A stretch of DNA of 44,209 nt from a virus. Position numbers and translations under genes: made by a program. Position 1 is the first letter of the stretch; the number at the start of each line of letters is the position of its first letter. The stretch lies in UHGV virus genome UHGV-0377591, one strand, 5' to 3'. Under the pieces are notes generated by a model. It was not told the DNA's origin. It saw nothing but the letters and a program-made list of their open reading frames with translations, and searched no databases. Shown here piece by piece: positions 312 to 41,119 of the stretch.

Positions 312-325
312 AATAGTACCATATT
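312..325 (-). promoter_or_regulatory. Imperfect operator palindrome AATAG-TACC-ATATT upstream of the HTH gene
   Basis: Minus-strand reading gives TACTATTCACAT about 30 nt upstream of the HTH start, the same core as the class II promoters below; no good -35. Confidence 0.4.
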
Positions 326-345
326 AATTATTTTAGAAAAGCCCA

Positions 346-374
346 TTGACATGTGAATAGTTCGCTATTATAGT
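346..374 (+). promoter_or_regulatory. Early sigma70-like promoter (class I) with operator palindrome in the spacer
   Basis: TTGACA (346-351), 17-bp spacer, TATAGT (369-374); AATAG-TTCG-CTATT at 356-369 lies inside the spacer. Confidence 0.6.
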
Positions 375-405
375 TAGTCCATACAAAACGAGAGGAGAGA
401 AACAA

Positions 406-903
406 ATGTTAGAACAATTTCTGAAATTACTGGAACGTTTCGTAGTTGCACACGAACTGATTGCAGCGAACAGTGCAAAACAAGTTGTTCATGCCGACGC
501 GCCGCTGGAAGTAGAGACAGTAGTGTATACCAAAAAAGCGGCGGGCGAGTGTGCCGAAGAAGCAAAAGAAATCACGGTTGAAGGTGAAGACGTCGTTGAC
601 ACTAAACCTGCGGAGGAAGAGAAGCCGAAACGCAAGACGCGTAAAGCTAAAGCAGAGGAACCGACGCCAGAGCCGGAAGAAGAGAAAAAAGAAGTAGATT
701 ACCAATCTCTGCGTGACCAGATTCAGGCTATCGACGATGCAATTAACGAAGGCCCGAGCGATGCCGCGTGCGATGATTCGGATGAACTGCTAGAAGAGTT
801 CACTGGCAAGAAGATGAAGATTGCCGCGATTAAAGACGAAGACCTGGCCGAATACCTGGAACGCCTGACGGCAATCAAGAACAAGTATTTCGAAGAAGAA
901 TAA
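406..903 (+). CDS. Highly acidic early protein, 165 aa, function unknown (candidate DNA mimic)
   Basis: ORF track; strong ribosome-binding site GAGAGGAGAGA; very high Glu/Asp content with a central Lys-rich stretch; ends KYFEEE. Confidence 0.7.
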   Translation: MLEQFLKLLERFVVAHELIAANSAKQVVHADAPLEVETVVYTKKAAGECAEEAKEITVEGEDVVDTKPAEEEKPKRKTRKAKAEEPTPEPEEEKKEVDYQSLRDQIQAIDDAINEGPSDAACDDSDELLEEFTGKKMKIAAIKDEDLAEYLERLTAIKNKYFEEE

Positions 904-910
904 CTATCTC

Positions 911-930
911 GCGGCCTTCGGGCCGCTTTA
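911..930 (+). terminator. Hairpin terminator or attenuator
   Basis: GCGGCC-TTCG-GGCCGC followed by TTTA; short T-run. Confidence 0.45.
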
Positions 931-946
931 ACTGAGGGTCGTAATT

Positions 947-1219
947 ATGATTTACCAACTCTACCGCGCCGTTGACTGGCGGGATAACGCAGAGGCGCTA
1001 TGGCTGTTGCGCGCTCCGTCCGGCGCACACCAGATGGAAGAGATGGCGTACTTAGGCAAAGTACCGCGGCCTAAAGACATAGGCCGTCACGTGTCGCAGA
1101 TTAAGCGCACGACTTTTGCCAAGCCTGACTTTTATGTCTTCGAGTCGATGTATGGGTGGGTCATGCATTGCCATCACCAGACACGGCATTTGATTGACCA
1201 GTGGGAGAACAGGGTATGA
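947..1219 (+). CDS. Hypothetical protein, 90 aa
   Basis: ORF track; stop overlaps the next start (ATGA at 1216-1219). Confidence 0.6.
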   Translation: MIYQLYRAVDWRDNAEALWLLRAPSGAHQMEEMAYLGKVPRPKDIGRHVSQIKRTTFAKPDFYVFESMYGWVMHCHHQTRHLIDQWENRV

Positions 1220-2457
1220 TTCTAAAAGAACGTGGCGGCAATAACGATGTGCACGCCTTACTGTCACCGTCAGGCGCTAAAAAGTGGCTAAGCTGCGCCG
1301 CATCGCTGGCCTGTGAAAAAGATATTCCTAACACATCTGGTAAAGACGCCGTTACAGGGACCGCGTGTCACACCATAGCCGAGGTCCATTTAAATCAGTA
1401 CATCAAAGGCACTGCGTTGCCGTTAGAGCGTGAAGTCGGTGCTTACGTGCTGGATGAAGGCAAAGGCCAGATTAAGGCGTTAATCAGCCCTATGAAAGGT
1501 GCGGTACTTATTACGGCGGACATGATTGAGCAGGTGCGTAAGTACACCGACTACTGCAAACCGATTATCGACGTAGCGACTTACGCCAAGCTGGAAATGC
1601 GCGTCAATCTTACAGAGGTGCTGCATCCGGGATATGAAGGCGTTGAGACGTTCGGGACCGCTGACCTTGTTGCCGTGCAGGAACTGGCGAACACCGACGA
1701 GCACATGCTCATTATTGGAGACCTTAAAACAGGACGGCACCGTGTTGAAGCGAAAGAAAACAAGCAGCTTATGCTTTATGCTCTCGGTGTTTATCGCCGA
1801 CTCAAGAGACGATATAACATCACAGTTGTTCGTCTGGTCATCTTCCAGCCGTACGCTGGGGGCGCGTCGGAGTGGGACATCTCGGTTGAAGGTCTGGAAC
1901 TGTTCGCTAAGTTCGCACGGAAACGTGCACTGTTAGCATTAGATGCGTATTTCCGTGGTAAAAAGAACCTTAAAGCGTCGGACTTCAAGCCGTCAGTAGA
2001 TGGTTGCCAGTGGTGTCGGTTCTCTGAACAGTGCGCCGCGCGTACAAAAACCGTTAACTCTGTACTGGCGGAAGAACTGGAAGATGACTTTGCGCCGGAG
2101 CTTACGCCGGAGCAACTCGTAACCGAGTATGAGAAGTTGCCGTTGTTGCGTCAACACATCGACAAGGTTGAGAAAGCTATGGCTGCCGCGTTGCATTCCG
2201 GTAAGAAAGTTCCGGGGTACAAGCTGGTCGAGGGTCGTCCTGGTAATCGTGCGTGGAAAGATGCAGAGAAAGTAGCAGAACTCTACGGCGACAAGCTGAC
2301 TAAAGAAGTGCTCATGACGCCGACAGAAGCTGTTAAAGTTATCCCGGAAGAAGAACTGAAAGACTTCATTACCCGTAAGCCGGGAGCGCCATGCGTCGCC
2401 GCGGCAGACGATAAACGGCCTGAGTGGGACAGTGTAACAGAGGAGGATTTAGAATGA
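1216..2457 (+). CDS. PD-(D/E)xK Cas4/RecB-like exonuclease with Fe-S cysteine cluster (DUF2800-type)
   Basis: Start moved to ATG 1216 (GGAG upstream). Motifs IGDLKTGR and QLMLYALG; C-terminal CQWCRFSEQC plus N-terminal Cys; ends VTEEDLE. Confidence 0.75.
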   Translation: MILKERGGNNDVHALLSPSGAKKWLSCAASLACEKDIPNTSGKDAVTGTACHTIAEVHLNQYIKGTALPLEREVGAYVLDEGKGQIKALISPMKGAVLITADMIEQVRKYTDYCKPIIDVATYAKLEMRVNLTEVLHPGYEGVETFGTADLVAVQELANTDEHMLIIGDLKTGRHRVEAKENKQLMLYALGVYRRLKRRYNITVVRLVIFQPYAGGASEWDISVEGLELFAKFARKRALLALDAYFRGKKNLKASDFKPSVDGCQWCRFSEQCAARTKTVNSVLAEELEDDFAPELTPEQLVTEYEKLPLLRQHIDKVEKAMAAALHSGKKVPGYKLVEGRPGNRAWKDAEKVAELYGDKLTKEVLMTPTEAVKVIPEEELKDFITRKPGAPCVAAADDKRPEWDSVTEEDLE

Positions 2458-2954
2458 GTTTAGTCCGGGAGCGTTTCATTTATGACAACGGGAAACTAAT
2501 CTATCGCCACAATACAAAAAGAATGTTAGCGGGTCATGAGGCAGGAAGCCTCCACCATTCAGGGTATGTGCAGATATACATTAATCGTAAGTCCTACCAA
2601 AGAAGCCGTTTAATATGGGAGTACCACAACGGCCCTATACCTGAAGGGTTTGAGGTGGACCATATAAATGCGATAAGAAATGATGACAGGATAGAGAATC
2701 TCCAGTTAATCGCCCATAGTGATAATGTGGCTAAAGGTGGTATTCAAACCGGAAGAAGTCATAACAAAAGTGGGTACACTGGCGTGTTTTGGCGCAAAAG
2801 CCACGGTAAATGGCAAGCTGGAATTACCGTAAACGGGCAATATCGTTACCTTGGACTATTCGAAACTCCTGAACATGCTAACGTGGCAAGAAAGAATTTT
2901 GAAAGTAATTTGCTAAAAGAAGTTGACTACCGAATAGCGAACTATTATAGTTAA
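2454..2954 (+). CDS. HNH homing endonuclease with AP2-like DNA-binding domain
   Basis: Start moved to ATG 2454 (AGGAGG upstream, ATGA overlap). HNH core EVDHIN…NDDRIENLQL; AP2-like GYTGVFWRKSHGKWQAGITVNGQYRYLGLFETPEHA. Confidence 0.8.
   Translation: MSLVRERFIYDNGKLIYRHNTKRMLAGHEAGSLHHSGYVQIYINRKSYQRSRLIWEYHNGPIPEGFEVDHINAIRNDDRIENLQLIAHSDNVAKGGIQTGRSHNKSGYTGVFWRKSHGKWQAGITVNGQYRYLGLFETPEHANVARKNFESNLLKEVDYRIANYYS
2923..2951 (+). promoter_or_regulatory. Early sigma70-like promoter (class I) embedded in the 3' end of the HNH gene
   Basis: TTGACT (2923-2928), 17-bp spacer, TATAGT (2946-2951); AATAG-CGAA-CTATT at 2933-2946. Confidence 0.55.
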
Positions 2955-2980
2955 ATCACTGGCCGGGCAGTTCCCGGAGT

Positions 2981-3015
2981 AAACTTAAAATCTAAACTTA
3001 AAATCTAAACTTAAT
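2981..3015 (+). repeat. 13-bp tandem direct repeat AAACTTAAAATCT, about 2.7 copies
   Basis: Two exact units at 2981-2993 and 2994-3006 plus a partial third; sits between the promoter and the SSB-like gene. Confidence 0.8.
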
Positions 3016-3027
3016 GAGGGCTGAACT

Positions 3028-3654
3028 GTGGGACTGAAATTAAATCTGCGTAAAGTAAACACTGCATGGGTTAACGTATTCGAACGCGAAAAAGACCGTG
3101 AAAACGATGATGGCTCAATCACTAAAGGCCAGTACAGCGCAACGATTATCCTGCCGTCTGACCATGCTCAAATCGATGCGCTCTACGACACCGTTTACGC
3201 GGTAGTTGAAGAAGCATTGGGCGCCGCCGCTGCCGAGAAGTGGATGAAATCCAACTACGGCGAAGGTAAGCACATGGATAAATGCGCGATTAAAGACATT
3301 GCCGAGCGCGACAATCCGTTTGAAGACTTCCCGGAAGGATTCTACTTCAAAGCGAAGGCGCAGAAACAGCCACTAATTGTAACCTCTAAAAAAGGTGAGA
3401 CACAGGTAGAGCAGGACTTCAATGCAGACGGCGAGCAGATTGAAGGTGAACAGGTTTACAGCGGCTGTGTTGCCAACGTAAGCGTTGAAATCTGGTTCAG
3501 CCAGAAATACAAAGTTCTCGGTGTTAACCTGCTGGCGATTAAATACGTCGGTGAAGGTAAGGCGTTCGGGGGTTCTAAAGTAGCCGCCAGCGTCGACGAC
3601 CTGGAAGACGACGAAGAGGGTGAAGCACCGCGCCGCGAACGTCGCCGCCGCTAA
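3028..3654 (+). CDS. Putative single-strand DNA-binding protein (DUF2815-like), 208 aa
   Basis: ORF track (GTG start after GAGGG). Sits between the Cas4-like exonuclease and the DNA polymerase; acidic C-terminal region DDLEDDEEGE. Function assigned from context and memory only. Confidence 0.5.
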   Translation: MGLKLNLRKVNTAWVNVFEREKDRENDDGSITKGQYSATIILPSDHAQIDALYDTVYAVVEEALGAAAAEKWMKSNYGEGKHMDKCAIKDIAERDNPFEDFPEGFYFKAKAQKQPLIVTSKKGETQVEQDFNADGEQIEGEQVYSGCVANVSVEIWFSQKYKVLGVNLLAIKYVGEGKAFGGSKVAASVDDLEDDEEGEAPRRERRRR

Positions 3655-3673
3655 TATCTGAATCAATTTAACT

Positions 3674-3697
3674 AAGGCCCTTCATTGGGCCTTTTTA
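3674..3697 (+). terminator. Hairpin terminator or attenuator ahead of the DNA polymerase gene
   Basis: AGGCCC-TTCATT-GGGCCT followed by TTTTT. Confidence 0.6.
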
Positions 3698-3715
3698 CTA
3701 AGGGTCGAAAATAAT

Positions 3716-5890
3716 ATGCAAGACTTACTGTTTAAAGATACTGAAACTTTTAGCGAAGCCGATTTGAAAAAGGTTGGGGCTTACCGGTACTCGGAAGACC
3801 CATCAACAGAGATTATTCTCGCCACTTACGCGTTTAACGATGAACCAGTGGAGGTTTACGACCCTACAAAAGGCCGAAATATACCTAGAGAACTGCGACG
3901 TTGCCTTGCTGGCCTTGAAAAGCCGAATTACGGGTTGAAACTTGTTGGTCACAATTTCCTTCAATTTGACAGACTCGTCATAGAGCGCTGCTGGGGTTAC
4001 AAAATTCACCCAACTAACATCATTGATACGATGCTTCTTGCGTTTCGACACGCGCTGCCCGGGTCACTGGCGGCGTTGTGTGAAGTACTTGGGGTGTCAG
4101 CAGAAAATGCGAAGGATAAACGCGGCAAGGCTCTGATTCAGCGTTTTTCTAAACCGACGCCGAAGAACTACAAAATACGTCGCTACACCGCGGATACACA
4201 CCCGGAAGAGTGGGCCTGGTTTATTAAGTACGGTATTAGCGACATTACATCGATGCGTGAAGTCTTCCATAAGCTGCCGCGTTGGGGTAACTCAGAGTTC
4301 GAGGACCGGGTACTGGAACTGGACCAATTAATCAACGACCGCGGGTTTAAGGTTGACGTCGCACTGGCGGAAGCCGCGATTGAAGCCGTGGAGAAGCACA
4401 AAGCGCAGTTACAGGAAGAAGCCCAGCGCAAATACGGCGGCTCGCTTACTGGTAAAGACTTCCTTCCTATTCTGCGTGAACTGGCCCCTGCGCATCGCAT
4501 CCATAACGCACAGAAGTCTACTCTTAACGACCTGCTGGCTGACGAGGATTTACCCGACGATGCACGCATGATTATCGAAATGCGCCTCGGGGCCGCGTCA
4601 ACTGCGTCAACGAAATATAACCCGCTGTTGCTAGGCCGCTCGTCTGACGACCGCCGTCGTGGTTGCATCCAGTACGGCGGAGCTAAGCGTACATTACGAT
4701 TTGCCGGTAAAGGCTTCCAGCCGCAGAACCTGGCGCGCGGGTATTATCATGATGAGGAACTGGATAAAGGCATTTCAGCGTTACTTAAGGGGCGGGCGCA
4801 CCGACGATTCGATGTCGCTAAATTAACGGCATCGACGGTGCGTAGCTGCATTATACCGGAAGCTGGGCATAAGTTTGTCGTTGCCGATTACTCTAACGTC
4901 GAAGGTCGTGGGTTGGCGTGGCTGGCTGGCGAAGACGATTTAATAGAAGTATTTGTAAACGGGGTTGATGTGTATAAGAAACTCGCATCAACCGTGTTCA
5001 ACGTGGCGTATGAAGACGTAACAAAGGACCAAAGACAAATAGCCAAAGCAATGGTTCTGGGCCTCGGCTACGCGGGGGGTGTCGGTGCTTTCGTCACGTT
5101 TGCTAAAAACTTAGGTCTTGATTTGAATGATATGACACGCACTTTAGACGGAACTTTCCCGGACCATATTTGGGCCGCTACCGCACGCGGTTACGAGTGG
5201 GCGCGTATCCAGGAAGCAAAGCGACCGCCGCATCCTGGTGAGAAGGATGACCGACCATCGTATATTCTTGATAAGAAAGTGTGGCGTACCTGTGATGCGT
5301 TAAAACGTATGTATCGGGAAGCTAATCCTGCAATAGTCCAATTCTGGCGAGATATTGAAGACGCGGCAATGGCAGCTATCCGCAATCCAGGTAAAGAGTT
5401 CACCGCAGGCCCGCGCGGCGTTAAGTTTTCGCGTAACGTAGAAACAGACAACAACGGCAACAAGGTCGCCGGTTGGTGGTTGCGTATGACGTTGCCGTCG
5501 GGCCGCGTTATGTCTTACCCTGGCGTCGGGTTAAGCGTGTCGAAAGAGACAGACGAAGACGGAAAGGTGTCTACTAACGTGCGCATCAAGTACCAGGGCG
5601 AAAACCAGTTAACCCGTCAGTGGGGCTTCCAGTACACCTACTCCGGTAAACTGGTGGAAAACTGCACGCAGGCGCTGTGCCGCGATTTGCTGGCTAATGC
5701 GCTGCTGAACGTTGAAGCAAACGGCTATCCAATTGTACTTCATGTTCACGATGAGATTATCTGCGAGACCCCAGATTTACCGGAATACAATGTAGCTGAA
5801 CTGGAACGATTGATGTGCGAATTACCGAAGTGGGCAGAGGGTTTCCCTCTTGTAGCGGAAGGTGCGGAGATGAAGCGTTATGCTAAGTAA
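3716..5890 (+). CDS. Family A (Pol I-like) DNA polymerase with 3'-5' exonuclease domain, 724 aa
   Basis: Exo I motif DTETFS near the N-terminus; polymerase motif C HVHDEIICE near the C-terminus. Confidence 0.9.
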   Translation: MQDLLFKDTETFSEADLKKVGAYRYSEDPSTEIILATYAFNDEPVEVYDPTKGRNIPRELRRCLAGLEKPNYGLKLVGHNFLQFDRLVIERCWGYKIHPTNIIDTMLLAFRHALPGSLAALCEVLGVSAENAKDKRGKALIQRFSKPTPKNYKIRRYTADTHPEEWAWFIKYGISDITSMREVFHKLPRWGNSEFEDRVLELDQLINDRGFKVDVALAEAAIEAVEKHKAQLQEEAQRKYGGSLTGKDFLPILRELAPAHRIHNAQKSTLNDLLADEDLPDDARMIIEMRLGAASTASTKYNPLLLGRSSDDRRRGCIQYGGAKRTLRFAGKGFQPQNLARGYYHDEELDKGISALLKGRAHRRFDVAKLTASTVRSCIIPEAGHKFVVADYSNVEGRGLAWLAGEDDLIEVFVNGVDVYKKLASTVFNVAYEDVTKDQRQIAKAMVLGLGYAGGVGAFVTFAKNLGLDLNDMTRTLDGTFPDHIWAATARGYEWARIQEAKRPPHPGEKDDRPSYILDKKVWRTCDALKRMYREANPAIVQFWRDIEDAAMAAIRNPGKEFTAGPRGVKFSRNVETDNNGNKVAGWWLRMTLPSGRVMSYPGVGLSVSKETDEDGKVSTNVRIKYQGENQLTRQWGFQYTYSGKLVENCTQALCRDLLANALLNVEANGYPIVLHVHDEIICETPDLPEYNVAELERLMCELPKWAEGFPLVAEGAEMKRYAK

Positions 5891-6011
5891 ATTAATTATC
5901 GCAGTACTGGCGGGATTCGCCGCAGGTGTCTACTGTCACGAGGGTCAATACGGATTGATGGTCGCTGTATTGGGTATGTTTATTGCAATTTATCTGTGGG
6001 TGTTGGAATGA
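5880..6011 (+). CDS. Small membrane protein, 43 aa (not in the ORF track)
   Basis: Manual translation MLSKLIIAVLAGFAAGVYCHEGQYGLMVAVLGMFIAIYLWVLE; two hydrophobic segments; overlaps the polymerase stop. Confidence 0.35.
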   Translation: MLSKLIIAVLAGFAAGVYCHEGQYGLMVAVLGMFIAIYLWVLE

Positions 6012-6106
6012 AAATTTACTGGTTATACGAGGAAGACTGTCGAATCTGTCCGCGCTGCGGGATTGAGCATACGAAACGTGAGGGGTGCGTAGATGAGTAC
6101 GCCTGA
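6008..6106 (+). CDS. Small four-cysteine zinc-ribbon-like protein, 32 aa (not in the ORF track)
   Basis: Manual translation MKIYWLYEEDCRICPRCGIEHTKREGCVDEYA; overlaps both neighbours. Confidence 0.3.
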   Translation: MKIYWLYEEDCRICPRCGIEHTKREGCVDEYA

Positions 6107-6380
6107 GGGGCGCGTGCAGAAATACGCAAAAGACCGATTCGAGGCCATCGGTGGCCTCGTACGCAAATTGTCGTACGAAAATAGAGTGGGTGCCCCTGAC
6201 CTGCTGGTAATTCTCCCCGGCGGCATTGTCTGGTTTATCGAGGTTAAGAAAGACGAAAACACGAAGCCAGACCCGCACCAGCTACGTGAACACGAGCGGA
6301 TGCGTAAACGCGGCGCGAATGTTTTTGTCGTTGGTTCGATAAAACAGGTTGACGACCTAATAGCGAACTATTATAGTTAG
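6093..6380 (+). CDS. VRR-NUC family PD-(D/E)xK nuclease, 95 aa
   Basis: Motifs GAPDLLVI and FIEVKKDEN; C-terminus IANYYS is encoded by the promoter/operator element. Confidence 0.75.
   Translation: MSTPEGRVQKYAKDRFEAIGGLVRKLSYENRVGAPDLLVILPGGIVWFIEVKKDENTKPDPHQLREHERMRKRGANVFVVGSIKQVDDLIANYYS
6349..6377 (+). promoter_or_regulatory. Early sigma70-like promoter (class I) embedded in the 3' end of the VRR-NUC gene
   Basis: TTGACG (6349-6354), 17-bp spacer, TATAGT (6372-6377); AATAG-CGAA-CTATT at 6359-6372. Confidence 0.55.
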
Positions 6381-6410
6381 TCACACACCAACAATATAAG
6401 GAATTGAGAA

Positions 6411-6605
6411 ATGAAACACGAATATGACCGCAAACCAGCACGTGACATCGTACCTGGCGATATGATTTTCAACGTTAAGACCCGTCGTCCTGTTGCCGTT
6501 GATACGGTGTTCGTCGAGTCGAACGGTAAACTGGTTATCGAAGACGTAACGGGTAATGTTACGGCGTTTGGGCGGAAGGAATTGGTACTCTACGTTAAGG
6601 GTTGA
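6411..6605 (+). CDS. Hypothetical protein, 64 aa
   Basis: ORF track; ribosome-binding site AAGGAATTGAGAA upstream. Confidence 0.6.
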   Translation: MKHEYDRKPARDIVPGDMIFNVKTRRPVAVDTVFVESNGKLVIEDVTGNVTAFGRKELVLYVKG

Positions 6606-6607
6606 TT

Positions 6608-8032
6608 ATGTCTAAATTTATCCGTCGAGAGTACCAGAAGCTCATGACTTCGTTCATGCTGCAACACCCGCGCTGTAATATTTGGGCCTCGATGGGCGCG
6701 GGCAAAAGTTCCGCAACGATGTGGGTTCTAAACCGCCTGTTCCGCAACGGGCAGCTTACGGAAGAGGACCGCGTGTTAATCCTCGCCCCGTTACGTGTTG
6801 CATCCGGTACGTGGCCCGCAGAACAAACTAAGTGGGGTTTCCCTTGTCTGAGTGTCGTCGATGCGACCGGTAGCGAGAGGCGTCGCATCGCGGCGCTGGA
6901 GTCGGACGCTAACGTGGTATGCACCAACTACGAAGTTATCGAGTGGCTGATTGACTACTACGGCAAAGACGACTGGCCTTTTACGGTTATCGTTGCCGAT
7001 GAGAGCACGAAACTGAAATCATTCCGCAGTCGTTCAGGCGGCAGCAAGCGGGCAAAGGCGCTTAGCAAGGTTGCGTTCGGTAAGGTCAAGCGTTTTATAA
7101 ACCTGACGGGAACGCCATCACCTAACGGCCTCAAAGACTTGTGGGGCCAGAACTGGTTTATCGACGCGGGCGAGCGCCTCGGCTCATCGTACACGGCATT
7201 CACCGACCGCTGGTTCAACTCGGTACAGAAAGGCAAATCGGCTATGGCGCGCGAATACCACGCTCGCCCTGGTGCGGATAATGAAATTCACCAGAATATG
7301 AAAGACATCAGCCTGACGATTGACGCCGCCGAGTGGTTTGGTTGTGAAGCACCTATTATCGTGCCGATGGAAATTGACCTGCCGAAGAAAGCGCGTCAGG
7401 CGTACATAGATATGGAGGAGAAGCTATTCGCAGAACTGGAAAGTGGGGAAGTTGAAGCGGCTAACGCCGCGGCGAAGACGTCGAAGTGCTTGCAGATTGC
7501 ATCTGGTGCCGTATATGTGTCAGGGCCGGACGGAGAAGCAACGAAAGACTGGGAGAAAGTGCACGACACGAAACTGGATGCGCTTGAGTCAATTGTTGAG
7601 GAGTTACAAGGTGCGCCGTTGCTGGTGGCCTATCAGTTCAAGCACGAACTGGAGCGCATCCTTAAGAGATTCCCACAAGCCCAGGCGTTCGCCAAAGGCG
7701 CGAATGGCAATAAGCAGATGGAAGCGTGGAACCGTGGTGAAATCGAAATCCTATGCGTGCACCCTGCGTCAGCCGGGCATGGTCTCAATTTACAGGACGG
7801 TGGCCATCATCTGGCGTTTATTTCGCAAGGGTGGAACCTTGAGCACTATTTGCAGGTTGTTGAGCGTATAGGTCCAGTCCGACAAAAACAGGCGGGCCAC
7901 GAACGACCGGTATTTCTCTACCACATCGTTGCTAAAGACACGCTGGATGAGGTTGTTGCCGCGCGTACAGACGAGAAGAAATCGGTCCAGGAAGAGTTGC
8001 TTAATTACATGAAGAGACGAGGTAAGAAATGA
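6608..8032 (+). CDS. SF2 (SNF2/DEAD-like) DNA helicase
   Basis: Start moved to ATG 6608 (AAGGG upstream). Walker A SMGAGKSS; motif II VIVADESTKLKS. Confidence 0.8.
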   Translation: MSKFIRREYQKLMTSFMLQHPRCNIWASMGAGKSSATMWVLNRLFRNGQLTEEDRVLILAPLRVASGTWPAEQTKWGFPCLSVVDATGSERRRIAALESDANVVCTNYEVIEWLIDYYGKDDWPFTVIVADESTKLKSFRSRSGGSKRAKALSKVAFGKVKRFINLTGTPSPNGLKDLWGQNWFIDAGERLGSSYTAFTDRWFNSVQKGKSAMAREYHARPGADNEIHQNMKDISLTIDAAEWFGCEAPIIVPMEIDLPKKARQAYIDMEEKLFAELESGEVEAANAAAKTSKCLQIASGAVYVSGPDGEATKDWEKVHDTKLDALESIVEELQGAPLLVAYQFKHELERILKRFPQAQAFAKGANGNKQMEAWNRGEIEILCVHPASAGHGLNLQDGGHHLAFISQGWNLEHYLQVVERIGPVRQKQAGHERPVFLYHIVAKDTLDEVVAARTDEKKSVQEELLNYMKRRGKK

Positions 8033-8214
8033 AACTTAATGTTGACGATGAAATATACAGCATACACTCATTCAATACTTTCACCATCGAGTACATATCG
8101 AAAGACGGCAACAGCTTTGTTTTGGTAAGCTCGGACGGTAAATACGAAAAGTCACGATGCTACACGCTGCCGGACATAAAGCGCAGTTTCAAGAAAAGCG
8201 AAGGTAAGAAATGA
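8029..8214 (+). CDS. Hypothetical protein, 61 aa
   Basis: ORF track; ATGA overlap with the helicase stop. Confidence 0.55.
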   Translation: MKLNVDDEIYSIHSFNTFTIEYISKDGNSFVLVSSDGKYEKSRCYTLPDIKRSFKKSEGKK

Positions 8215-8348: not shown

Positions 8349-8350
8349 AG

Positions 8351-8378
8351 AAAAGGCCCCGTTTGGGGCCTTTTGTAT
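8351..8378. terminator. Bidirectional rho-independent terminator between the convergent early and late operons
   Basis: AAAA-GGCCCC-GTTT-GGGGCC-TTTT. Confidence 0.8.
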
Positions 8379-18813: not shown

Positions 18814-18842
18814 TTGCGCACCCCAACATAATAGGATACTAT
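18814..18842 (+). promoter_or_regulatory. Class II promoter with operator palindrome overlapping the -10
   Basis: TTGCGC (18814-18819), 17-bp spacer, TACTAT (18837-18842); AATAG-GATA-CTATT at 18830-18843. Confidence 0.5.
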
Positions 18843-18883
18843 TCACTTACACCAACAATGTTAACTCAAACAGGATCTACACC

Positions 18884-19075
18884 ATGACAGGTATTACTAT
18901 GTTCTTCTTAATCATTATCGTTTTAGTTTATTTTATCCCATTTCTCGTGGCGCATATGCGCAACCATAAAGCTAAATTAGCGATATTCATGGCTAATCTG
19001 TTTCTCGGTTGGGTTCTGCTGCCGTGGGTATTTATTTTAATCTGGGCGTGCAACTCGAATGTCAAAGAGAAGTGA
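18884..19075 (+). CDS. Small two-transmembrane protein, 63 aa (candidate superinfection-immunity or holin-like)
   Basis: MTGITMFFLIIIVLVYFIPFLVAHMRNHKAKLAIFMANLFLGWVLLPWVFILIWACN; AGGA ribosome-binding site; first gene of the rightward insert. Confidence 0.55.
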   Translation: MTGITMFFLIIIVLVYFIPFLVAHMRNHKAKLAIFMANLFLGWVLLPWVFILIWACNSNVKEK

Positions 19076-19114
19076 GCTAGTATAGGACAAATCCTAAACA
19101 CGAGGAAGTAAAGC

Positions 19115-28113: not shown

Positions 28114-28363
28114 GTTTCCCCTTTCTCGATAAGTAAAGCCCCGCTTTAAGGCGGGGCGCTAGTCCTTATCATTTAAACATAGAAACGGCGTAATCTCAGT
28201 AAACCAGTTACTTTTTACACAAGCAATAGAGTATGGCCCTTCCGAACGCGTCAGCGTAACTACACTCAGGACTTACGTCCCGCTCCGTTACCTGCCCGCG
28301 CCGCGGTCGCTTGCTCATACTTCACAAGCTCAGGTGGAGCTTATCATATTTTCAGTGAAAAGT

Positions 28364-28379
28364 CAACTATTCGAATAGT
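28364..28379. promoter_or_regulatory. Perfect 16-bp palindrome AACTATTCGAATAGTT (everted operator half-sites)
   Basis: CTATT-CG-AATAG core; 55 bp upstream of the class II promoter. Confidence 0.5.
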
Positions 28380-28432
28380 TTATTCCAACGTTTACAATTG
28401 AGTGGAATAACTGGAATACGTAAATAAATAGT

Positions 28433-28461
28433 TTGCGCGCACCAACATAATAGGGTACTAT
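28433..28461 (+). promoter_or_regulatory. Class II promoter with operator palindrome overlapping the -10
   Basis: TTGCGC (28433-28438), 17-bp spacer, TACTAT (28456-28461); AATAG-GGTA-CTATT at 28449-28462. Confidence 0.5.
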
Positions 28462-28488
28462 TCAGTTAACTTAAACAGGAGATGAGAA

Positions 28489-29010
28489 ATGGTTACTACA
28501 GTAATTACTTTCCCTGCGTATGTAGGGGCGAAAATATGCAGGGCTAAAAATGATGTTCGCTACTATTTGAACGCTTTTTACATAGACCCTGAAGGATTGA
28601 TAGTGTCTACGGACGGTCATAGATTGTTCTGCGACAATGTGAAGACCAACGTTGAGAAAGGGACTCTCATAGACATCAAAGGGAGAGAGCCTTCTAAATT
28701 TAACTACGCGGAGGTAAACCACGACAACGGCAGTGTATCTTTCTATAACGATAATCGTGCGCTTATATGTACACTTCCGGTAGATGTTGTAGAAGGAAAC
28801 TTTCCTGACTGGAGACGCGTGGCGCACATCACACCGGGTGTTGTCGATAGTATAGGGTTCACCCTGCGTTATTTGGCAGACGCGTACAAGATTTCTAAGG
28901 CATACAAAAATGAAATTGCTCGTTTCGATTTCCAGGACCAAACCAGAGGATGCAAAATACAATTTTCAAACACGGCCTTTATGGTGTTAATGCCTGCGCG
29001 ATTTAAATAA
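28489..29010 (+). CDS. Hypothetical protein, 173 aa, encoded on the opposite strand inside the head-gene module
   Basis: ORF track; own promoter and AGGAGATGAGAA ribosome-binding site; own terminator. Confidence 0.65.
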   Translation: MVTTVITFPAYVGAKICRAKNDVRYYLNAFYIDPEGLIVSTDGHRLFCDNVKTNVEKGTLIDIKGREPSKFNYAEVNHDNGSVSFYNDNRALICTLPVDVVEGNFPDWRRVAHITPGVVDSIGFTLRYLADAYKISKAYKNEIARFDFQDQTRGCKIQFSNTAFMVLMPARFK

Positions 29011-30194: not shown

Positions 30195-31271
30195 TTATAC
30201 CGACCTAAGATATTCAGCAACCCTGTTATCTAACGCCGCCATCTCCTTCAAGGTTAAAGGTCTACCAAAAGCGTCGACGGATATTACCCGGAATTCCTCT
30301 GGGGATATCCCACTATTCCTGAATATAGCACCGCGGGTAGGTCCGAGTGCTTCATCCACGAACCATGCCGGTTGCTGTTTCAGGAACTCGTAATAGGTGG
30401 TGTCTGCGCTTACCTGCATACCGCCGTCCGCACCCTTAGCCGCGCGTTTTGCACCTTTATCTAGGAAGTCGAACTCCGAACTGATTACCGGTGCAGTGGT
30501 ACTTCGACATCCAAAATGGGCGGGGGGCATCGGACCTTTACCGATTTCCCACGTCATCCCGTCTCTGGCCCTGCAAATCGTACTGGTACGGCTGTCCAGC
30601 GTTGACACCCATTCGTATTTCTCGATGATGTCGTCGTTCTGGCGGTATGTCTCGTTGCGGGCTTCGTTGGATACGTGAGACAGCGCGGTGCGGATTACCG
30701 TAGCCGCGTTGCGTTCAGAGATGTCCGCCAGCCCACCAGCGCCTACGACATTTTTAACAATCTGCCGTGTGGTTTGGCCCTGAACAAACCCCATCTTAAC
30801 GCCAGTTACGAGGCGCGCGGCCTCCGTTTCACCCCAGCCTGCCATCAGCTTAGTGAAATCGACGGGCTTGTCGCTTAACGACAGCGGCTGAAACTCGGCA
30901 GCAGCCCACACCTGTTCGGCGGTAGGCGTAACAAATTCCGCGTCAACGTTGGCGGTCAGTGTTTTTACGTTCCACTCAGCCTCATATGCGGCCAGTTCCT
31001 TAAGGTCTTCTGTCAGCTTTGTTTGCCAGTCACCTGTAAGCCCCGTCAGTGCTTCTTCAAGGTCGCGTAACAGTTTATTCAGTCGCGCAGTGCTTCGCCC
31101 GTCGTCACCGAATAACAGCACCTGCCGTTTGATTTCGTCCCGCATCTCCTGAATGAACGGTGCGAGGTCTTTCACTTCACCGGACGCGGTGCGTTGCAGC
31201 CATATCTGGTGGCTGATTAGGGATGTAAGTAAGCTCATAGATAAACCCTGTGGCGCTAAAGTTAATAGCAT
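30195..31271 (-). CDS. Head morphogenesis protein (SPP1 gp7 / Mu F-like, by position and size)
   Basis: ORF track; immediately downstream of the portal gene. Confidence 0.65.
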   Translation of the reverse strand: MLLTLAPQGLSMSLLTSLISHQIWLQRTASGEVKDLAPFIQEMRDEIKRQVLLFGDDGRSTARLNKLLRDLEEALTGLTGDWQTKLTEDLKELAAYEAEWNVKTLTANVDAEFVTPTAEQVWAAAEFQPLSLSDKPVDFTKLMAGWGETEAARLVTGVKMGFVQGQTTRQIVKNVVGAGGLADISERNAATVIRTALSHVSNEARNETYRQNDDIIEKYEWVSTLDSRTSTICRARDGMTWEIGKGPMPPAHFGCRSTTAPVISSEFDFLDKGAKRAAKGADGGMQVSADTTYYEFLKQQPAWFVDEALGPTRGAIFRNSGISPEEFRVISVDAFGRPLTLKEMAALDNRVAEYLRSV

Positions 31272-31277
31272 ACTATA

Positions 31278-34804: not shown

Positions 34805-35047
34805 TTAGTAGCCGCATTCGTTCTCCTCTTTAGCAATACGTTGCTCTGTTTTAGTGATACCCCGGCGCGTGAATAACACCGGGCTTGTCTTAACGTGCGT
34901 CATCAGACGATTGTTATAAATTACGTGGCGCTCGCAATCAACGTCTTTGCTGTACTTCGCAATCGTCATTTCGTTGATGCCGGTTTGTCGGCATGTCTCA
35001 GCCATCGTGCCGTATTCTTTAATCAGGTTCGGAATGCTGGTAATCAT
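34805..35047 (-). CDS. Small HTH-containing protein, 80 aa
   Basis: Start moved to ATG 35047 (GAGGAA upstream; ATGA coupling); helix-turn-helix-like MAETCRQTGINEMTIAKY. Confidence 0.5.
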   Translation of the reverse strand: MITSIPNLIKEYGTMAETCRQTGINEMTIAKYSKDVDCERHVIYNNRLMTHVKTSPVLFTRRGITKTEQRIAKEENECGY

Positions 35048-36686: not shown

Positions 36687-36769
36687 CTTCTCTACTCCGT
36701 TCTCGTTGTCGATGGAGTAAATATAGTAGGGTCGCAGGTAATAGTCAACTAGTCATTGCAGAAAATAGA

Positions 36770-39620: not shown

Positions 39621-39763
39621 CAGCTACCTCCAGTTCGCCGTAAACATGCTCGTTGTCGCCGCTGCATACACTGCAAACTCGCAACTCAGCATAAAGCTGT
39701 TCCAGTTTCTCAACCGTCAGATACTTATACATCTTCCGTCTCTCCTCTCGTTTGTGTAAATGA

Positions 39764-39792
39764 ATAGTAGCCTATTCTATCTTAATGTGCAA
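39764..39792 (-). promoter_or_regulatory. Class II promoter (leftward) with operator palindrome
   Basis: Minus strand TTGCAC, 17-bp spacer, TACTAT; plus-strand AATAG-TAGC-CTATT at 39763-39776. Confidence 0.5.
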
Positions 39793-40024: not shown

Positions 40025-40060
40025 AAATGAGAAAAATGATACGCTGCTGTGTAGCAGCGT
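40025..40060 (-). terminator. Rho-independent terminator
   Basis: Perfect 8-bp stem ACGCTGCT-GTGT-AGCAGCGT (40041-40060) followed on the minus strand by a T-rich run. Confidence 0.6.
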
Positions 40061-40106
40061 AAGTCACTCAGTAAAATCTTAAACTATTGACCTGTTACAC
40101 CACCTG

Positions 40107-40319
40107 TTACACCAGCGATGGCGTCTTAGGCAGCGGCATCCAGTGGGTTACATCTTCAAGGGTATTTCCGGATAAATACGTGAAACCTCTATATTTCTTA
40201 TAATCGATTGGGCTTACAACCCAGTTCCAATATGCTGCCACGATTTCACCTTGACTAAATGCAAGTAACATTTGCGTATATTCCGGCATCCGCCCACTAC
40301 ACTTAATCCACTCGCCCAT
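40107..40319 (-). CDS. DUF551-like phage protein, 70 aa
   Basis: N-terminal EWIKCSGRMPE and C-terminal VTHWMPLPKTP match the family hallmarks as recalled. Confidence 0.55.
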   Translation of the reverse strand: MGEWIKCSGRMPEYTQMLLAFSQGEIVAAYWNWVVSPIDYKKYRGFTYLSGNTLEDVTHWMPLPKTPSLV

Positions 40320-40322
40320 ATC

Positions 40323-40514
40323 TCACTTCTGATTCGCTATAAACAACACACCAGCTTTCCACGCCCGCCACGCGAGACGCGTCTTAACGTTCAGGTACTC
40401 TTTCTTAGAGCCCTTGTTAACAGGCAGACCCTCGACGACGGCCCACCGTTCAAATGCTTCTCTCATAACTAATAACTCCGATAACTTTAGATTTCTCGCG
40501 CCTGGCGCAACCAT
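40323..40514 (-). CDS. Hypothetical protein
   Basis: ORF track; start uncertain. Confidence 0.4.
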   Translation of the reverse strand: MVAPGARNLKLSELLVMREAFERWAVVEGLPVNKGSKKEYLNVKTRLAWRAWKAGVLFIANQK

Positions 40515-40705
40515 GTTCTATGTAGTAGCGCGCCTGCTTGACGCTTTCGCAACGCGTCAGAGTAACCCACCAGAAAAAAGCCAACGCGAACCTGCACGGC
40601 AGGTGTAATTCGTTTCTCACCGAAGGCGGTAACCCACTCTTCGCTAACTATGCGGTATTTACTTAACACGGCAACCTCCCTGGGAGTCGTCGGCACGAGC
40701 ATCAT
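40487..40705 (-). CDS. Hypothetical protein
   Basis: ORF track; overlaps both neighbours, start uncertain. Confidence 0.4.
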   Translation of the reverse strand: MMLVPTTPREVAVLSKYRIVSEEWVTAFGEKRITPAVQVRVGFFLVGYSDALRKRQAGALLHRTWLRQAREI

Positions 40706-40868
40706 GATTCGATGCCGTTCGTATTGCTCGTAAACTATTTAACATTCTCTCACTAGTAGATGTAATAACCGTTATACCATCCACCAGGTGGATCTCGTAA
40801 CGTTCGGCTACGAAGTATATTTCCTCGAATTCATGATGTTTCAGTTCTTCAAATAATTCTTCCATCAC
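40659..40868 (-). CDS. Hypothetical acidic protein
   Basis: ORF track; start uncertain. Confidence 0.4.
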   Translation of the reverse strand: MMEELFEELKHHEFEEIYFVAERYEIHLVDGITVITSTSERMLNSLRAIRTASNHDARADDSQGGCRVK

Positions 40869-41056
40869 TTCGCCCCTTTGAATTTAAAATTGTTGCCGAT
40901 GAGTTCTAAATCTCCCCCAGGCATGCGTATTACCGAGTTTACTCCTCCCACATTTTGCACAATCACGATGTACTCCCCTGGAAATAAATCAGATTTTAAT
41001 TCAATTATGCCGTGGCTACCGTCGGCACATTTCACCAACTGACCCTCCTTAAACAT
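40865..41056 (-). CDS. Hypothetical protein, 63 aa; first gene of the leftward accessory operon
   Basis: ORF track; class II promoter about 35 nt upstream. Confidence 0.5.
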   Translation of the reverse strand: MFKEGQLVKCADGSHGIIELKSDLFPGEYIVIVQNVGGVNSVIRMPGGDLELIGNNFKFKGAK

Positions 41057-41090
41057 AACCCTAACTCCTCTGTCTCGTTTCGATAAGTGA

Positions 41091-41119
41091 ATAGTATCCT
41101 ATTATATTGGGGTGTGCAA
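41091..41119 (-). promoter_or_regulatory. Class II promoter (leftward) with operator palindrome
   Basis: Minus strand TTGCAC, 17-bp spacer, TACTAT; plus-strand AATAG-TATC-CTATT at 41090-41103; extra half-site GAATAGTT at 41122-41129. Confidence 0.55.

What the first reader, a model, noticed from the sequence alone, without database searches (positions are those of the whole stretch)
312..41119. Genome-wide operator palindrome AATAG-N4-CTATT embedded in two promoter classes
Found by eye at 312-325 (imperfect), 356-369, 2933-2946, 6359-6372, 18830-18843, 28449-28462, 39763-39776 and 41090-41103, with an everted perfect palindrome at 28364-28379, a degenerate copy at 36740-36753 and a half-site at 41122-41129. 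Class I (346, 2923, 6349; all rightward early) is TTGAC(A/T/G)-17 bp-TATAGT with the palindrome in the spacer. Class II (18814 and 28433 rightward; 39764 and 41091 leftward) is TTGC(G/A)C-17 bp-TACTAT with the palindrome overlapping the -10; 312 is a degenerate copy without -35. Extended conservation in class II (CTTGCGCACC…AACATAATAGGNTACTATTCA) argues for one DNA-binding protein controlling early genes, both inserted cassettes and the accessory operon. The XRE HTH protein (66..281) or the small HTH proteins (34805..35047, 41554..41724) are candidates.
Basis: seen in the sequence. Interest (0 to 1): 0.7.

Follow-up and report, generated by a model that had tools for sequence, protein, structure and literature searches.

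The report
Promoter-embedded operator palindrome in a Kagunavirus
A 14-base palindrome (AATAG-N4-CTATT) sits inside almost every promoter of this E. coli phage and its Salmonella-phage relatives; it is most likely the binding site of the phage's small 434-Cro-like regulator, an ordinary kind of switch whose repeated motif genome papers have already listed as a "phage promoter".

Summary
AATAG-N4-CTATT occurs 7 times perfectly (0.01 expected) and 4 more times with one mismatch (11 in all against 1.2 expected), always at promoter-like positions. The window is a complete, circularly permuted Kagunavirus genome (Guernseyvirinae). The palindrome is the most frequent gapped palindrome of those I scanned (5-base arms) in Kagunavirus and in the one complete Jerseyvirus genome. 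Cornellvirus carries a related 5-N4-5 element (AWTAS) in the same promoter register.

In an alignment anchored on the regulator gene rather than on the motif, 0 of 20 half-site columns vary among 36 distinct Kagunavirus sequences. The central bases, the flanks and, between genera, the -35 hexamer do vary. It therefore looks like an operator for a dimeric protein.

The best candidate is the 71-aa protein at 66..281. 434 Cro is its best sequence and fold match, 434 operators have the same 14-bp geometry, and the protein was found in every lineage examined that carries the element. The HTH_17 protein (41554..41724) is disfavoured: Cornellvirus and one Kagunavirus contig with 6 palindromes lack it.

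No binding or transcript-end data exist, and the only time-course RNA-seq is coarse and does not fit a simple early shut-off. Three genome papers already report the repeat from PHIRE scans. Verdict: real, ordinary kind, modest interest.

The parts
66..281 (-). Gene for the 71-aa XRE/HTH_3 protein resembling 434 Cro; best candidate for the palindrome-binding regulator
   Evidence: Pfam HTH_3 1.1e-12. Best solved homologue is 434 Cro, E 1.9e-6 over the full length. AF2 model pLDDT 81 with five helices; best Foldseek PDB hit 2cro, 39% identity. Found in all Kaguna, Jersey and Cornell genomes examined.
312..325 (.). Imperfect operator (AATAGTACCATATT) at the regulator's own leftward promoter. Read leftward it is AATATGGTACTATT, an extended -10 (TGG-TACTAT) with no -35.
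   Evidence: Half-sites invariant in 36 distinct Kagunavirus sequences. An alternative leftward promoter, TTCACA-16-TAAAAT, lies at 357->330.
346..374 (+). Class I promoter TTGACA-17-TATAGT, with perfect operator 356-369 in the spacer; drives 406..903 and the recombination/replication genes
   Evidence: 11 of 12 sigma-70 match, the best in 1-8400. Half-sites vary in 0 of 10 columns, the centre in 3 of 4.
2923..2951 (+). Class I promoter TTGACT-17-TATAGT with operator 2933-2946; drives the T7 gp2.5-like SSB (3028..3654) and DNA polymerase. It overlaps the 3' end of the HNH endonuclease ORF 2424..2954.
   Evidence: Orthologous promoter in SETP13, and with ATTAG-N4-GTATT in Shemara.
6349..6377 (+). 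Class I promoter TTGACG-17-TATAGT with operator 6359-6372; drives 6411..6605 and the helicase. It overlaps the 3' end of the VRR-NUC-like ORF 6093..6380.
   Evidence: The same promoter core, TTGACGacctAATAGCGAACTATTATAGT, is at SETP13 26398(-).
18814..18843 (+). Class II promoter TTGCGC-17-TACTAT with operator 18830-18843 over the -10; drives the rightward cassette (Imm 18884..19075, metallophosphoesterase, PNKP-like phosphatase, P-loop protein)
   Evidence: Candidate leftward promoters lie back-to-back with it, facing the tail operon (18864->18836 TTAACA-17-TAGTAT; TTGGGG-16-TAGAAT read by eye).
28338..28380 (-). Candidate class III promoter: one-mismatch palindrome 28358-28371 (read leftward AATAGTTGACTTTT) containing a TTGACT -35, a weak -10 TAAGCT, and an extra everted half-site (AACTATTCGAATAGTT, 28365-28380). 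It faces the spanin/scaffold/capsid operon.
   Evidence: The same 26-mer occurs in Kaguna and Jersey loci. The promoter scanner did not flag it.
28433..28462 (+). Class II promoter TTGCGC-17-TACTAT with operator 28449-28462; drives the clamp-like gene 28489..29010
31264..31277 (+). Orphan class II-like copy (AATAGCATACTATA, one mismatch) that points straight into the terminator at 31282-31297; probably a remnant of a moron promoter
   Evidence: Relatives have a reverse-strand gene and a class II promoter at this position (SETP13 gp04 and site 3724; fBC-Eco01 PP1).
36720..36753 (-). Class III promoter TTGACT-17-TATATT whose -35 lies inside the one-mismatch palindrome 36740-36753 (read leftward ACTAGTTGACTATT); drives the small genes, terminase and portal
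   Evidence: 10 of 12 sigma-70 match. Still imperfect in both genera, but with the mismatch in the opposite half (Jersey AATAGTTGACTAGT).
39764..39792 (-). Class II promoter TTGCAC-17-TACTAT with operator 39763-39776; drives the leftward operon that ends with the protease-like gene, holins and endolysin
41091..41119 (-). Class II promoter TTGCAC-17-TACTAT with operator 41090-41103; drives the leftward array of small genes from 41056. On the opposite strand TCGATA-17-TATATT (41080-41108) has class I geometry.
41493..41521 (+). Promoter TTGATT-17-TATACT of the HTH_17/primase-helicase operon. It is the only candidate promoter near the HTH_17 operon in which I found no palindrome copy; the by-eye tail-operon candidate near 18783-18811 also has none.
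   Evidence: conserved in SETP13. The HTH_17 gene is one of four early-peaking genes in the K1B4 RNA-seq.
41554..41724 (+). Gene for the 56-aa HTH_17 (excisionase/MerR-like) protein; rival candidate binder, disfavoured
   Evidence: Pfam HTH_17 3e-7. 89% identical between Kaguna and Jersey, absent from Cornellvirus and from Kagunavirus contig L034, which keeps 6 palindromes.

Best explanation
The 14-bp dyad (K)AATAG-N4-CTATT(M) is the operator of one phage-encoded dimeric helix-turn-helix regulator. That regulator is most probably the 71-aa 434-Cro-like protein encoded at 66..281. Copies of the operator overlap the core elements of host sigma-70-type promoters throughout the genome. They lie in the spacer of three near-consensus promoters for recombination and replication genes (class I). 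They lie over the -10 of four weaker promoters for accessory cassettes, small-gene arrays and the lysis operon (class II), and of the regulator's own promoter. Imperfect copies lie over the -35 of one or two late-operon promoters (class III). A bound dimer would exclude RNA polymerase. The protein would therefore act as a genome-wide feedback repressor, graded by operator quality: perfect copies at class I and II, one mismatch at its own and the late promoters. Shown here: the motif, its statistics, its promoter contexts, its selective conservation, and the fold and distribution of the candidate proteins. Inferred: that it is bound at all, that the 66..281 protein binds it, and that binding represses.
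For: Motif: 7 perfect copies against 0.01 expected, 11 with at most one mismatch against 1.2. It is the top gapped palindrome in Kagunavirus and in SETP13, the one complete Jerseyvirus genome scanned. In IMG/VR it is multi-copy only in Guernseyvirinae-like contigs among the first 120 stretches returned.
Promoter link: each of the 7 perfect sites and site 312 is followed within about 25-80 nt by a ribosome-binding site and a start codon in the matching direction. The class I sites are the three best sigma-70 matches in 1-8400.
Operator-like variation: in an alignment anchored on the regulator gene, 0 of 20 half-site columns vary in 36 distinct Kagunavirus sequences. By contrast 4 of 8 central columns, 2 of 4 columns between the -35 and the operator, and 19 of 31 leader columns vary. 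Across Kaguna plus Jersey the left halves vary in 0 of 10 columns while the -35 hexamer varies in 3 of 6.
Independence from promoter parts: the element occurs in both orientations and in registers -35+4, +7 and +10 and over the -35. Promoter requirements alone therefore do not explain it, and in class I the left half lies in the spacer.
Regulator: HTH_3. 434 Cro is the best sequence and fold match. From my own knowledge, 434 operators are also 14 bp, with conserved outer bases and a variable centre. Two operators flank the divergent promoters next to its gene (312 and 356). The protein is present in all three genera and in all 39 loci anchored on HTH_17 that have enough flank. Cornellvirus lacks HTH_17 but keeps a 5-N4-5 element at the same class I register (ATTAG-N4-GTATT-ATAGT).
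Against: No binding, footprint or 5'-end data exist for any member of the subfamily (literature searches). The regulator is only 49% identical between Kagunavirus and Jerseyvirus, and its recognition helix differs (SQGAINQ against SQSLITH) although the core half-site is identical. The Jersey helix is closer to that of Cornellvirus (TQSAISH), whose element differs. This is less conservation than expected for a protein tied to ten or more operators. The substitutions are conservative, however, and lambda CI and Cro show that different helices can read one operator (my own knowledge). In the one RNA-seq time course of a Kagunavirus (K1B4, MOI 100, coarse sampling), the regulator is classed 'middle'. 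DNA polymerase, helicase and Imm, all behind class I or II promoters, are classed 'late'. The HTH_17 gene, behind the promoter without an operator, is one of four 'early' genes. That is not the pattern of a simple early shut-off.
Confidence: 0.5

Rival explanations
1. The palindrome is an operator, but a different protein binds it: the 56-aa HTH_17 protein (41554..41724), an unrecognised small phage protein, or a host factor shared by E. coli and Salmonella.
For: HTH_17 is 89% identical between Kaguna and Jersey, which share the palindrome, and is absent from Cornellvirus, which has a different element. In the phage collection it was found almost only in these two genera. It is an early-peaking gene expressed from the promoter without an operator. 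A host factor would explain why the core is identical in coliphages and Salmonella phages although the XRE protein has diverged.
Against: Kagunavirus contig L034 has 6 perfect palindromes in 20 kb but no HTH_17. There the gene and its neighbour are replaced by a 47-aa zinc-ribbon ORF and a 149-aa ORF. Cornellvirus keeps a same-geometry element without HTH_17. From my own knowledge, HTH_17, excisionase, Cox and BldC-type proteins usually bind direct repeats, not 5-N4-5 dyads. I could recall no E. coli transcription factor with this consensus; OxyR has ATAG-N7-CTAT and SlyA has TTAG-N4-CTAA, which are resemblances only and were not tested. PHROGs and Pfam found no other DNA-binding protein among the small early proteins I screened.
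Confidence: 0.27
2. The conserved block is a positive promoter element. An early phage factor, acting as an activator or by modifying the host polymerase, recognises it, so promoters bearing the palindrome are middle/late promoters rather than repressed early ones. Genome papers label it 'phage-specific promoter'.
For: PHIRE finds it as the phage's repeated promoter-like motif. Class II promoters match sigma-70 poorly (8 of 12) and share about 40 nt of similarity beyond the palindrome, including a spacer block ACC(C)CAAYAT that is also seen in Jersey. In the K1B4 RNA-seq, genes behind these promoters peak in the middle or late classes, while the HTH_17 operon, which has no operator, peaks early.
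Against: The genome encodes no RNA polymerase (annotation of the 95%-identical phage Snoke; gene mapping). Class I promoters are near-consensus sigma-70 promoters with 17-18 bp spacers and need no activator. A dyad over the -10, or in a 17-bp spacer, in either orientation, is not a known activator geometry; MerR-type activation needs 19-20 bp spacers (my own knowledge). The RNA-seq classes come from peak times at MOI 100, sampled to 120 min with a 30-min latent period, and are weak evidence.
Confidence: 0.15
3. The palindrome has no separate function. The promoters are paralogous copies of one ancestral promoter cassette, and the palindrome is inherited baggage or a by-product of -10-like symmetry.
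For: Class II promoters are alike over about 40 nt. TACTAT, TATAGT and TAGTAT within and beside the dyad all resemble -10 hexamers.
Against: The half-sites are invariant while the neighbouring promoter and spacer positions vary. The dyad shifts among four registers and both orientations. It holds the class II -10 at the sub-optimal TACTAT. It has persisted across genera whose proteins are 50-90% identical.
Confidence: 0.05

Closest known systems
Phage 434 Cro with its 14-bp OR/OL operators (also P22 and lambda Cro)
   Same: Small five-helix HTH_3 protein of the same length; 434 Cro is its best sequence and fold match. Operators are 14-bp dyads with conserved outer bases and a variable centre, they overlap sigma-70 promoter elements, and a pair of them lies between divergent promoters beside the regulator gene.
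   Different: There is no partner CI repressor, integrase or lysogeny module. The operators are not confined to one immunity region but sit in about 11 promoters around the genome, in several registers. The half-site is AATAG, not ACAA. Binding is untested.
PHIRE-predicted 'phage promoters' or 'phage-specific regulatory element' of Kagunavirus and Jerseyvirus genome papers (fBC-Eco01, Golestan, SGP-C)
   Same: This is the same repeated sequence: tgAATAGTa-ccTATTat-T in fBC-Eco01 and TAATAGTACCCTATTATGTT in SGP-C.
   Different: Those papers list the sequence only as tool output, in fBC-Eco01 attributed to a phage RNA polymerase that these phages do not encode. They do not note the dyad symmetry, the promoter classes or a link to a regulator.
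Restriction-modification controller (C) proteins and their C-boxes
   Same: Structural neighbours of the model (C.AhdI, C.BclI, C.Esp1396I). They are small XRE dimers that bind dyads overlapping promoters and give concentration-dependent control.
   Different: C-proteins control one operon through paired operators and both activate and repress. Here one dyad type is spread over a whole phage genome.
T4 MotA/AsiA middle promoters and other phage-specific promoter elements
   Same: A conserved phage-specific sequence is combined with a sigma-70 -10 element, and class II promoters have a weak -35.
   Different: The MotA box is an oriented element that replaces the -35. Here the element is a dyad, lies over the -10 or in the spacer, occurs in both orientations, and also sits in promoters with a consensus -35.

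Membership tests
Cro-type (434 Cro / HTH_3) repressor with its operators | The protein has an HTH_3 (Cro/C1-type) domain | tested here: met
   Pfam HTH_3 E 1.1e-12, 48 bits against a cut-off of 23; PHROGs transcriptional repressor families.
Cro-type (434 Cro / HTH_3) repressor with its operators | A compact five-helix fold like 434 Cro or the repressor DNA-binding domain | tested here: met
   phmmer against PDB: 434 Cro E 1.9e-6 over residues 6-68. AF2 single-sequence model, pLDDT 81, five helices. Best Foldseek hit 2cro, TM 0.73-0.79, 39% identity.
Cro-type (434 Cro / HTH_3) repressor with its operators | The operator is a short dyad with conserved outer half-sites and a non-conserved centre | tested here: met
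   AATAG-N4-CTATT. Half-sites vary in 0 of 20 columns and centres in 4 of 8 in the gene-anchored alignment.
Cro-type (434 Cro / HTH_3) repressor with its operators | Operators overlap promoter core elements, including those beside the regulator gene | tested here: met
   By sequence only. Sites 312 and 356 lie between 66..281(-) and 406..903(+).
Cro-type (434 Cro / HTH_3) repressor with its operators | The protein binds the operator as a dimer and represses transcription | not testable with these tools
   Needs gel shift or footprinting and in vitro transcription. No published data found.
Cro-type (434 Cro / HTH_3) repressor with its operators | Regulator and operator specificity change together between lineages | tested here: inconclusive
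   The Cornellvirus element differs (AWTAS) and so does its helix (TQSAISH). But the Kaguna and Jersey helices also differ (SQGAINQ, SQSLITH) while the core is identical. Only the flanking base differs between them: T or G in Kaguna, T in Jersey.
Temperate-phage immunity region (CI/Cro switch) | A partner maintenance repressor and integration or plasmid-maintenance functions; prophages present in host genomes | tested here: not met
   No integrase or CI in the annotated relative Snoke or in the gene mapping. No match in 5,426 complete E. coli genomes. One 44-kb 'plasmid' record is a Kagunavirus genome.
Promoters for a phage-encoded RNA polymerase (the label used for fBC-Eco01) | The phage encodes its own RNA polymerase | tested here: not met
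   None in the annotation of the 95%-identical phage Snoke. All large window ORFs map to other functions.
Promoters for a phage-encoded RNA polymerase (the label used for fBC-Eco01) | One oriented conserved sequence at a fixed distance from the transcript start | tested here: not met
   The dyad occurs in both orientations relative to the downstream gene and in at least three registers relative to the -35 and -10.
Sigma-70-type promoters | -35 and -10 hexamers 16-18 bp apart, upstream of a gene | tested here: met
   Class I 10-11 of 12. Class III at 36748 scores 10 of 12. Class II scores only 8 of 12 and was not flagged. All are followed by a ribosome-binding site and start codon.
Sigma-70-type promoters | Mapped transcription start sites | not testable with these tools
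   No 5'-end data found. The K1B4 RNA-seq paper gives no start sites.
MerR-type operators that activate from the promoter spacer | A dyad in an over-long (19-20 bp) spacer | tested here: not met
   Class I spacers are 17-18 bp with near-consensus hexamers.

The most novel reading that the evidence does not exclude
Because one dyad covers nearly every promoter (replication, accessory, lysis and late), its binding protein could silence the whole genome. That would give these 'strictly lytic' therapy phages a repressible, episomal carrier state with superinfection immunity. The hints are a report of turbid plaques and immune 'lysogens' for Jerseyvirus SGP-C and a complete Kagunavirus genome deposited as a circular 44-kb 'plasmid' of an E. 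coli blood isolate.
Probability: 0.08. Interest if true: 0.7.

Novelty: new member of a known kind. Interest (0 to 1): 0.33.

Why it matters
Kagunavirus and Jerseyvirus phages are widely isolated for therapy and biocontrol. They are now in the BASEL collection, whose authors describe them as attractive models for synthetic biology because their genomes are small. Nothing has been established about how their transcription is organised.

If one small Cro-like protein and one 14-bp operator govern about eleven promoters, three things follow. The system is an easy handle for engineering these phages, for example by tuning or switching expression or by building immunity-like containment. The 'phage RNA polymerase promoter' label in published annotations would need correcting. 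And these phages would be an example of a virulent phage that keeps only the Cro half of a lambdoid-type switch and spreads its operators genome-wide. The principle itself, a helix-turn-helix dimer occluding sigma-70 promoters, is textbook.

Tried and rejected
1. Hairpin or RNA function for the dyad: rejected. The arms are 5 bp and the element lies upstream of the predicted transcript starts. Rfam finds nothing in the window.

2. Bidirectional -10 symmetry as the cause: rejected. In class II the centre is asymmetric, so only one strand has a usable -10. In class I the whole dyad lies in the spacer.

3. HTH_17 as binder, from its distribution: attractive at first, because it is 89% conserved and absent from Cornellvirus. 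It was weakened by contig L034, which lacks the gene but keeps 6 dyads, and by the same-geometry element in Cornellvirus.

4. The reverse test, loci with HTH_17 but without XRE: none found. All 39 loci with enough flank have XRE.

6. Temperate lifestyle: no prophage copies in 5,426 E. coli genomes.

7. Other DNA-binding candidates among small early proteins: none by Pfam or PHROGs. By eye, 41721..41954 looks like a winged helix, but it is absent from Cornellvirus and L034.

8. Temporal evidence: the K1B4 RNA-seq paper supplies only coarse peak classes and no expression matrix.

9. The Cornellvirus element could not be reduced to a clean consensus. TATTA-N6-TAATA has 3 perfect copies per genome and 8-9 with at most one mismatch, against 1-1.5 expected. 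The class I orthologues read ATTAG-N4-GTATT.

10. One literature search was poorly specified and returned nothing relevant.

Full report
**What the window is.** The 44,209-bp window is a complete, circularly permuted genome of a Kagunavirus (Guernseyvirinae) coliphage. It is 93-95% identical to Escherichia phages Snoke, Schulenburg and relatives. It is opened inside the primase-helicase gene, whose 750-aa ORF runs from about 42001 through the end into the start. Mapping Snoke's annotated proteins onto the window gives this layout:
- a Cro-like gene at 66..281(-);
- a rightward recombination and replication block (406-8345);
- leftward tail, head and packaging operons, interrupted by two rightward cassettes (18884-21284 and 28489-29010);
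- leftward arrays of small genes and lysis genes (41056-36868);
- a rightward HTH_17/primase-helicase operon starting at 41554.

No RNA polymerase gene is annotated or left unaccounted for.

**Promoter context.** The scanner ranks TTGACA-17-TATAGT (346), TTGACT-17-TATAGT (2923) and TTGACG-17-TATAGT (6349) as the three best sigma-70 matches in 1-8400. In each, the dyad starts 4 nt after the -35 and its last bases run into the -10.

Class II is TTGCRC-N10-AATAGGNTACTATT, found at 18814(+), 28433(+), 39792(-) and 41119(-). It puts the -10 TACTAT inside the right half-site. At 8 of 12 matches these promoters fall below the scanner's threshold.

Site 312, read leftward, is AATATGGTACTATT. That is an extended -10 (TGG-TACTAT) without a -35, in front of the Cro-like gene. 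The scanner also finds a leftward TTCACA-16-TAAAAT whose -35 overlaps the 356 operator.

I add a third arrangement. At 36740(-), and probably at 28358(-), a one-mismatch dyad with centre TTGA contains a TTGACT -35. The site at 36748(-) reads TTGACT-17-TATATT (10 of 12). The site at 28366(-) reads TTGACT-17-TAAGCT and is weak. They face the terminase/portal operon and the spanin/head operon.

Site 31264 is an orphan class II-like copy that points into a terminator. Relatives have a reverse-strand gene there.

Each of the 7 perfect sites and site 312 is followed within about 25-80 nt by a Shine-Dalgarno sequence and a start codon in the right direction. Near the HTH_17 operon, the only candidate promoter in which I found no dyad is its own, TTGATT-17-TATACT at 41493. 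It is conserved in SETP13. The by-eye tail-operon candidate near 18783-18811 also has none.

**Is it more than shared promoter ancestry?** I fetched 58 loci anchored on the Cro-like protein, not on the motif, and aligned the intergenic region next to that gene. Among 36 distinct Kagunavirus sequences:

| Region | Variable columns |
|---|---|
| Half-sites of both operators | 0 of 20 |
| Operator centres | 4 of 8 |
| Between -35 and operator | 2 of 4 |
| Between the two operators | 9 of 20 |
| Leader | 19 of 31 |

With Jerseyvirus added (47 sequences), the two left half-sites still vary in 0 of 10 columns while the -35 hexamer varies in 3 of 6. The promoter spacer changes between 17 and 18 nt while the dyad keeps its distance to the -10.

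The dyad occurs in either orientation relative to transcription. In SETP13 it also occurs in a -35+7 register. In class II it holds the -10 at the sub-optimal TACTAT. These are the marks of a binding site for a symmetric dimer rather than of a promoter element.

**Who binds it?** The 66..281 protein is HTH_3 (E 1e-12). Its best solved homologue is 434 Cro, with E 1.9e-6 over the full length and the same 71 residues. A single-sequence AlphaFold2 model (pLDDT 81, five helices) has 434 Cro as its best Foldseek hit in the PDB (39% identity). The 434 repressor, P22 c2 and the R-M controller proteins follow. From my own knowledge, 434 operators are also 14-bp dyads with conserved outer bases and a variable centre.

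The gene sits beside two operators between divergent promoters. The protein is present in Kagunavirus (at least 94% identity), Jerseyvirus (about 50%) and Cornellvirus (about 40%).

The rival HTH_17 protein (41554..41724) is 89% identical between Kaguna and Jersey and absent from Cornellvirus. That distribution matches the exact dyad. Two findings count against it:
- Kagunavirus contig L034 has 6 perfect dyads in 20 kb but no HTH_17. The gene and its neighbour are replaced by two unrelated ORFs upstream of the same primase-helicase allele.
- Cornellvirus, which has no HTH_17, keeps a 5-N4-5 element at the same class I register. Shemara has TTGACA-tagc-ATTAGTACAGTATT-ATAGT, and the first early promoter reads TTGCAT-aacgg-ATTAGCTTAGTATT-ATAGT. 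It also has TATTA-N6-TAATA sites in other promoters.

The reverse case was not found. All 39 loci anchored on HTH_17 with enough flank encode the XRE protein. The 34805..35047 protein is only a weak NinH-like match in a late operon. Pfam and PHROGs found no other DNA-binding protein among the small early proteins I screened.

**The main caveat.** The XRE recognition helix differs between genera: Kaguna SQGAINQ, Jersey SQSLITH, Cornell TQSAISH. Yet Kaguna and Jersey share the core half-site. The only operator difference I found between those two genera is the flanking base, which is T or G in Kaguna (119 and 100 of 240 half-sites) and T in Jersey (75 of 86). The substitutions are conservative (G/S, A/L, N/T/S, Q/H). 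Lambda CI and Cro also read the same operators with different helices (my own knowledge). Even so, this is weaker covariation than one would want. I put the XRE protein at roughly 55% given that the dyad is an operator at all.

**Direction of control.** A dimer on the spacer, the -10 or the -35 should exclude RNA polymerase. The grading of perfect copies (class I and II) against conserved one-mismatch copies (the regulator's own promoter and the late promoters) suggests graded feedback repression. This is inference.

The only temporal transcriptome of a Kagunavirus is K1B4, at MOI 100, sampled from 5 to 120 min with a 30-min latent period. It gives peak classes only. I mapped its genes by coordinates:
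- 004, the XRE protein, is classed 'middle'.
- 008, HTH_17, is one of four 'early' genes.
- Imm, helicase and DNA polymerase are classed 'late'.

That does not fit a simple early shut-off of class I and II promoters, and it keeps an activator-type reading alive at about 15%. The design of that experiment makes it weak evidence either way.

**What is already known.** The repeat has been published as PHIRE output:
- fBC-Eco01: seven 'phage RNAP promoters' with consensus tgAATAGTa-ccTATTat-T.
- Golestan: seven PHIRE promoters.
[quoted passage not shown] That paper also calls the two HTH proteins Cro and cI and the phage temperate.

None of the papers I read notes the dyad symmetry, the promoter registers or the conservation pattern, and none tests binding. 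I found no integrated or episomal copy in 5,426 complete E. coli genomes. There is one 44-kb 'plasmid' record that is a Kagunavirus genome.

**Verdict.** The best explanation is a Cro-type operator-repressor system that a virulent phage subfamily has spread across its promoters. It is a new member of a known kind. The motif is already in the literature under a wrong label, and the regulator and the sign of regulation are still unproven.

Noticed in passing
window 18706-18790 (- strand); L002 14925-15002; L003 33345-33422: The leader of the tail-assembly-chaperone/tail operon holds a conserved hairpin (GCGGG-TGGTTCC-CGT). Its loop is conserved, and Cornellvirus shows G-C to A-U compensatory changes. 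An outer GCGCC...GGCGC stem, read by eye, also seems to covary across the three genera. It may be a 5' regulatory or stabilising RNA element of the late operon.
   Followed up: partly
window 2958-2985 (+): A hairpin (CCGGG-CAGTTC-CCGG) lies in the roughly 75-nt leader between the class I promoter and the SSB gene. It is conserved in Kaguna, Jersey and Cornell genomes, with one compensatory pair in Shemara. It could be a translational operator for the SSB.
   Followed up: partly
window 41057-41553: A 500-bp non-coding gap between the divergent 41090 promoter and the HTH_17 gene holds two strong terminator-like hairpins (41192-41212 and 41367-41389) and a TACTATAAT box about 35 nt upstream of the second. 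It may encode a small RNA. There is no Rfam match.
   Followed up: no
window 31264-31297: An orphan class II-like promoter copy points directly into the portal-gene terminator. Relatives have a reverse-strand gene here, so this looks like the scar of a lost moron.
   Followed up: partly
window 2424-2954 (+): An HNH_3 plus AP2-domain homing endonuclease is inserted between the exonuclease and SSB genes; Snoke lacks it. Its last codons carry the -35 and operator of the SSB promoter.
   Followed up: partly
L034 12559-13144 (IMGVR_UViG_3300045988_014597): In one Kagunavirus contig, the HTH_17 gene and the following small gene are replaced by a 47-aa CxxC...CxxC zinc-ribbon ORF and a 149-aa ORF. 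They lie upstream of the same primase-helicase allele as in the window. This is a natural module swap, useful for testing what HTH_17 does.
   Followed up: partly
window 42001-44209 plus 1-42: The primase-helicase allele of the window is only 25-30% identical to Snoke's, although the flanking DNA is about 95% identical. The replication module is mosaic.
   Followed up: no
window 18746-19075: Snoke's annotation starts the superinfection-immunity gene at the equivalent of 18746, upstream of its own promoter. The likely start is 18884 (63 aa; Pfam Imm_superinfect 8e-14).
   Followed up: yes
window 19115-21284 (+): The class II-driven cassette encodes a metallophosphoesterase, a PNKP-type phosphatase domain protein (4e-13) and a weak P-loop/AAA_18 protein. 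This could be a split polynucleotide kinase-phosphatase RNA-repair set, possibly a counter-defence.
   Followed up: no
PLSDB record CP088689.1 (L183): A complete 44,086-bp Kagunavirus genome is deposited as the circular 'plasmid' pC16EC0033-2 of an E. coli blood isolate. It reflects either a carrier state or contamination.
   Followed up: partly
Snoke L001 3408-5267 versus window 30195-31271: Snoke's capsid-morphogenesis gene carries a 273-residue intein that is absent from the window's orthologue.
   Followed up: no
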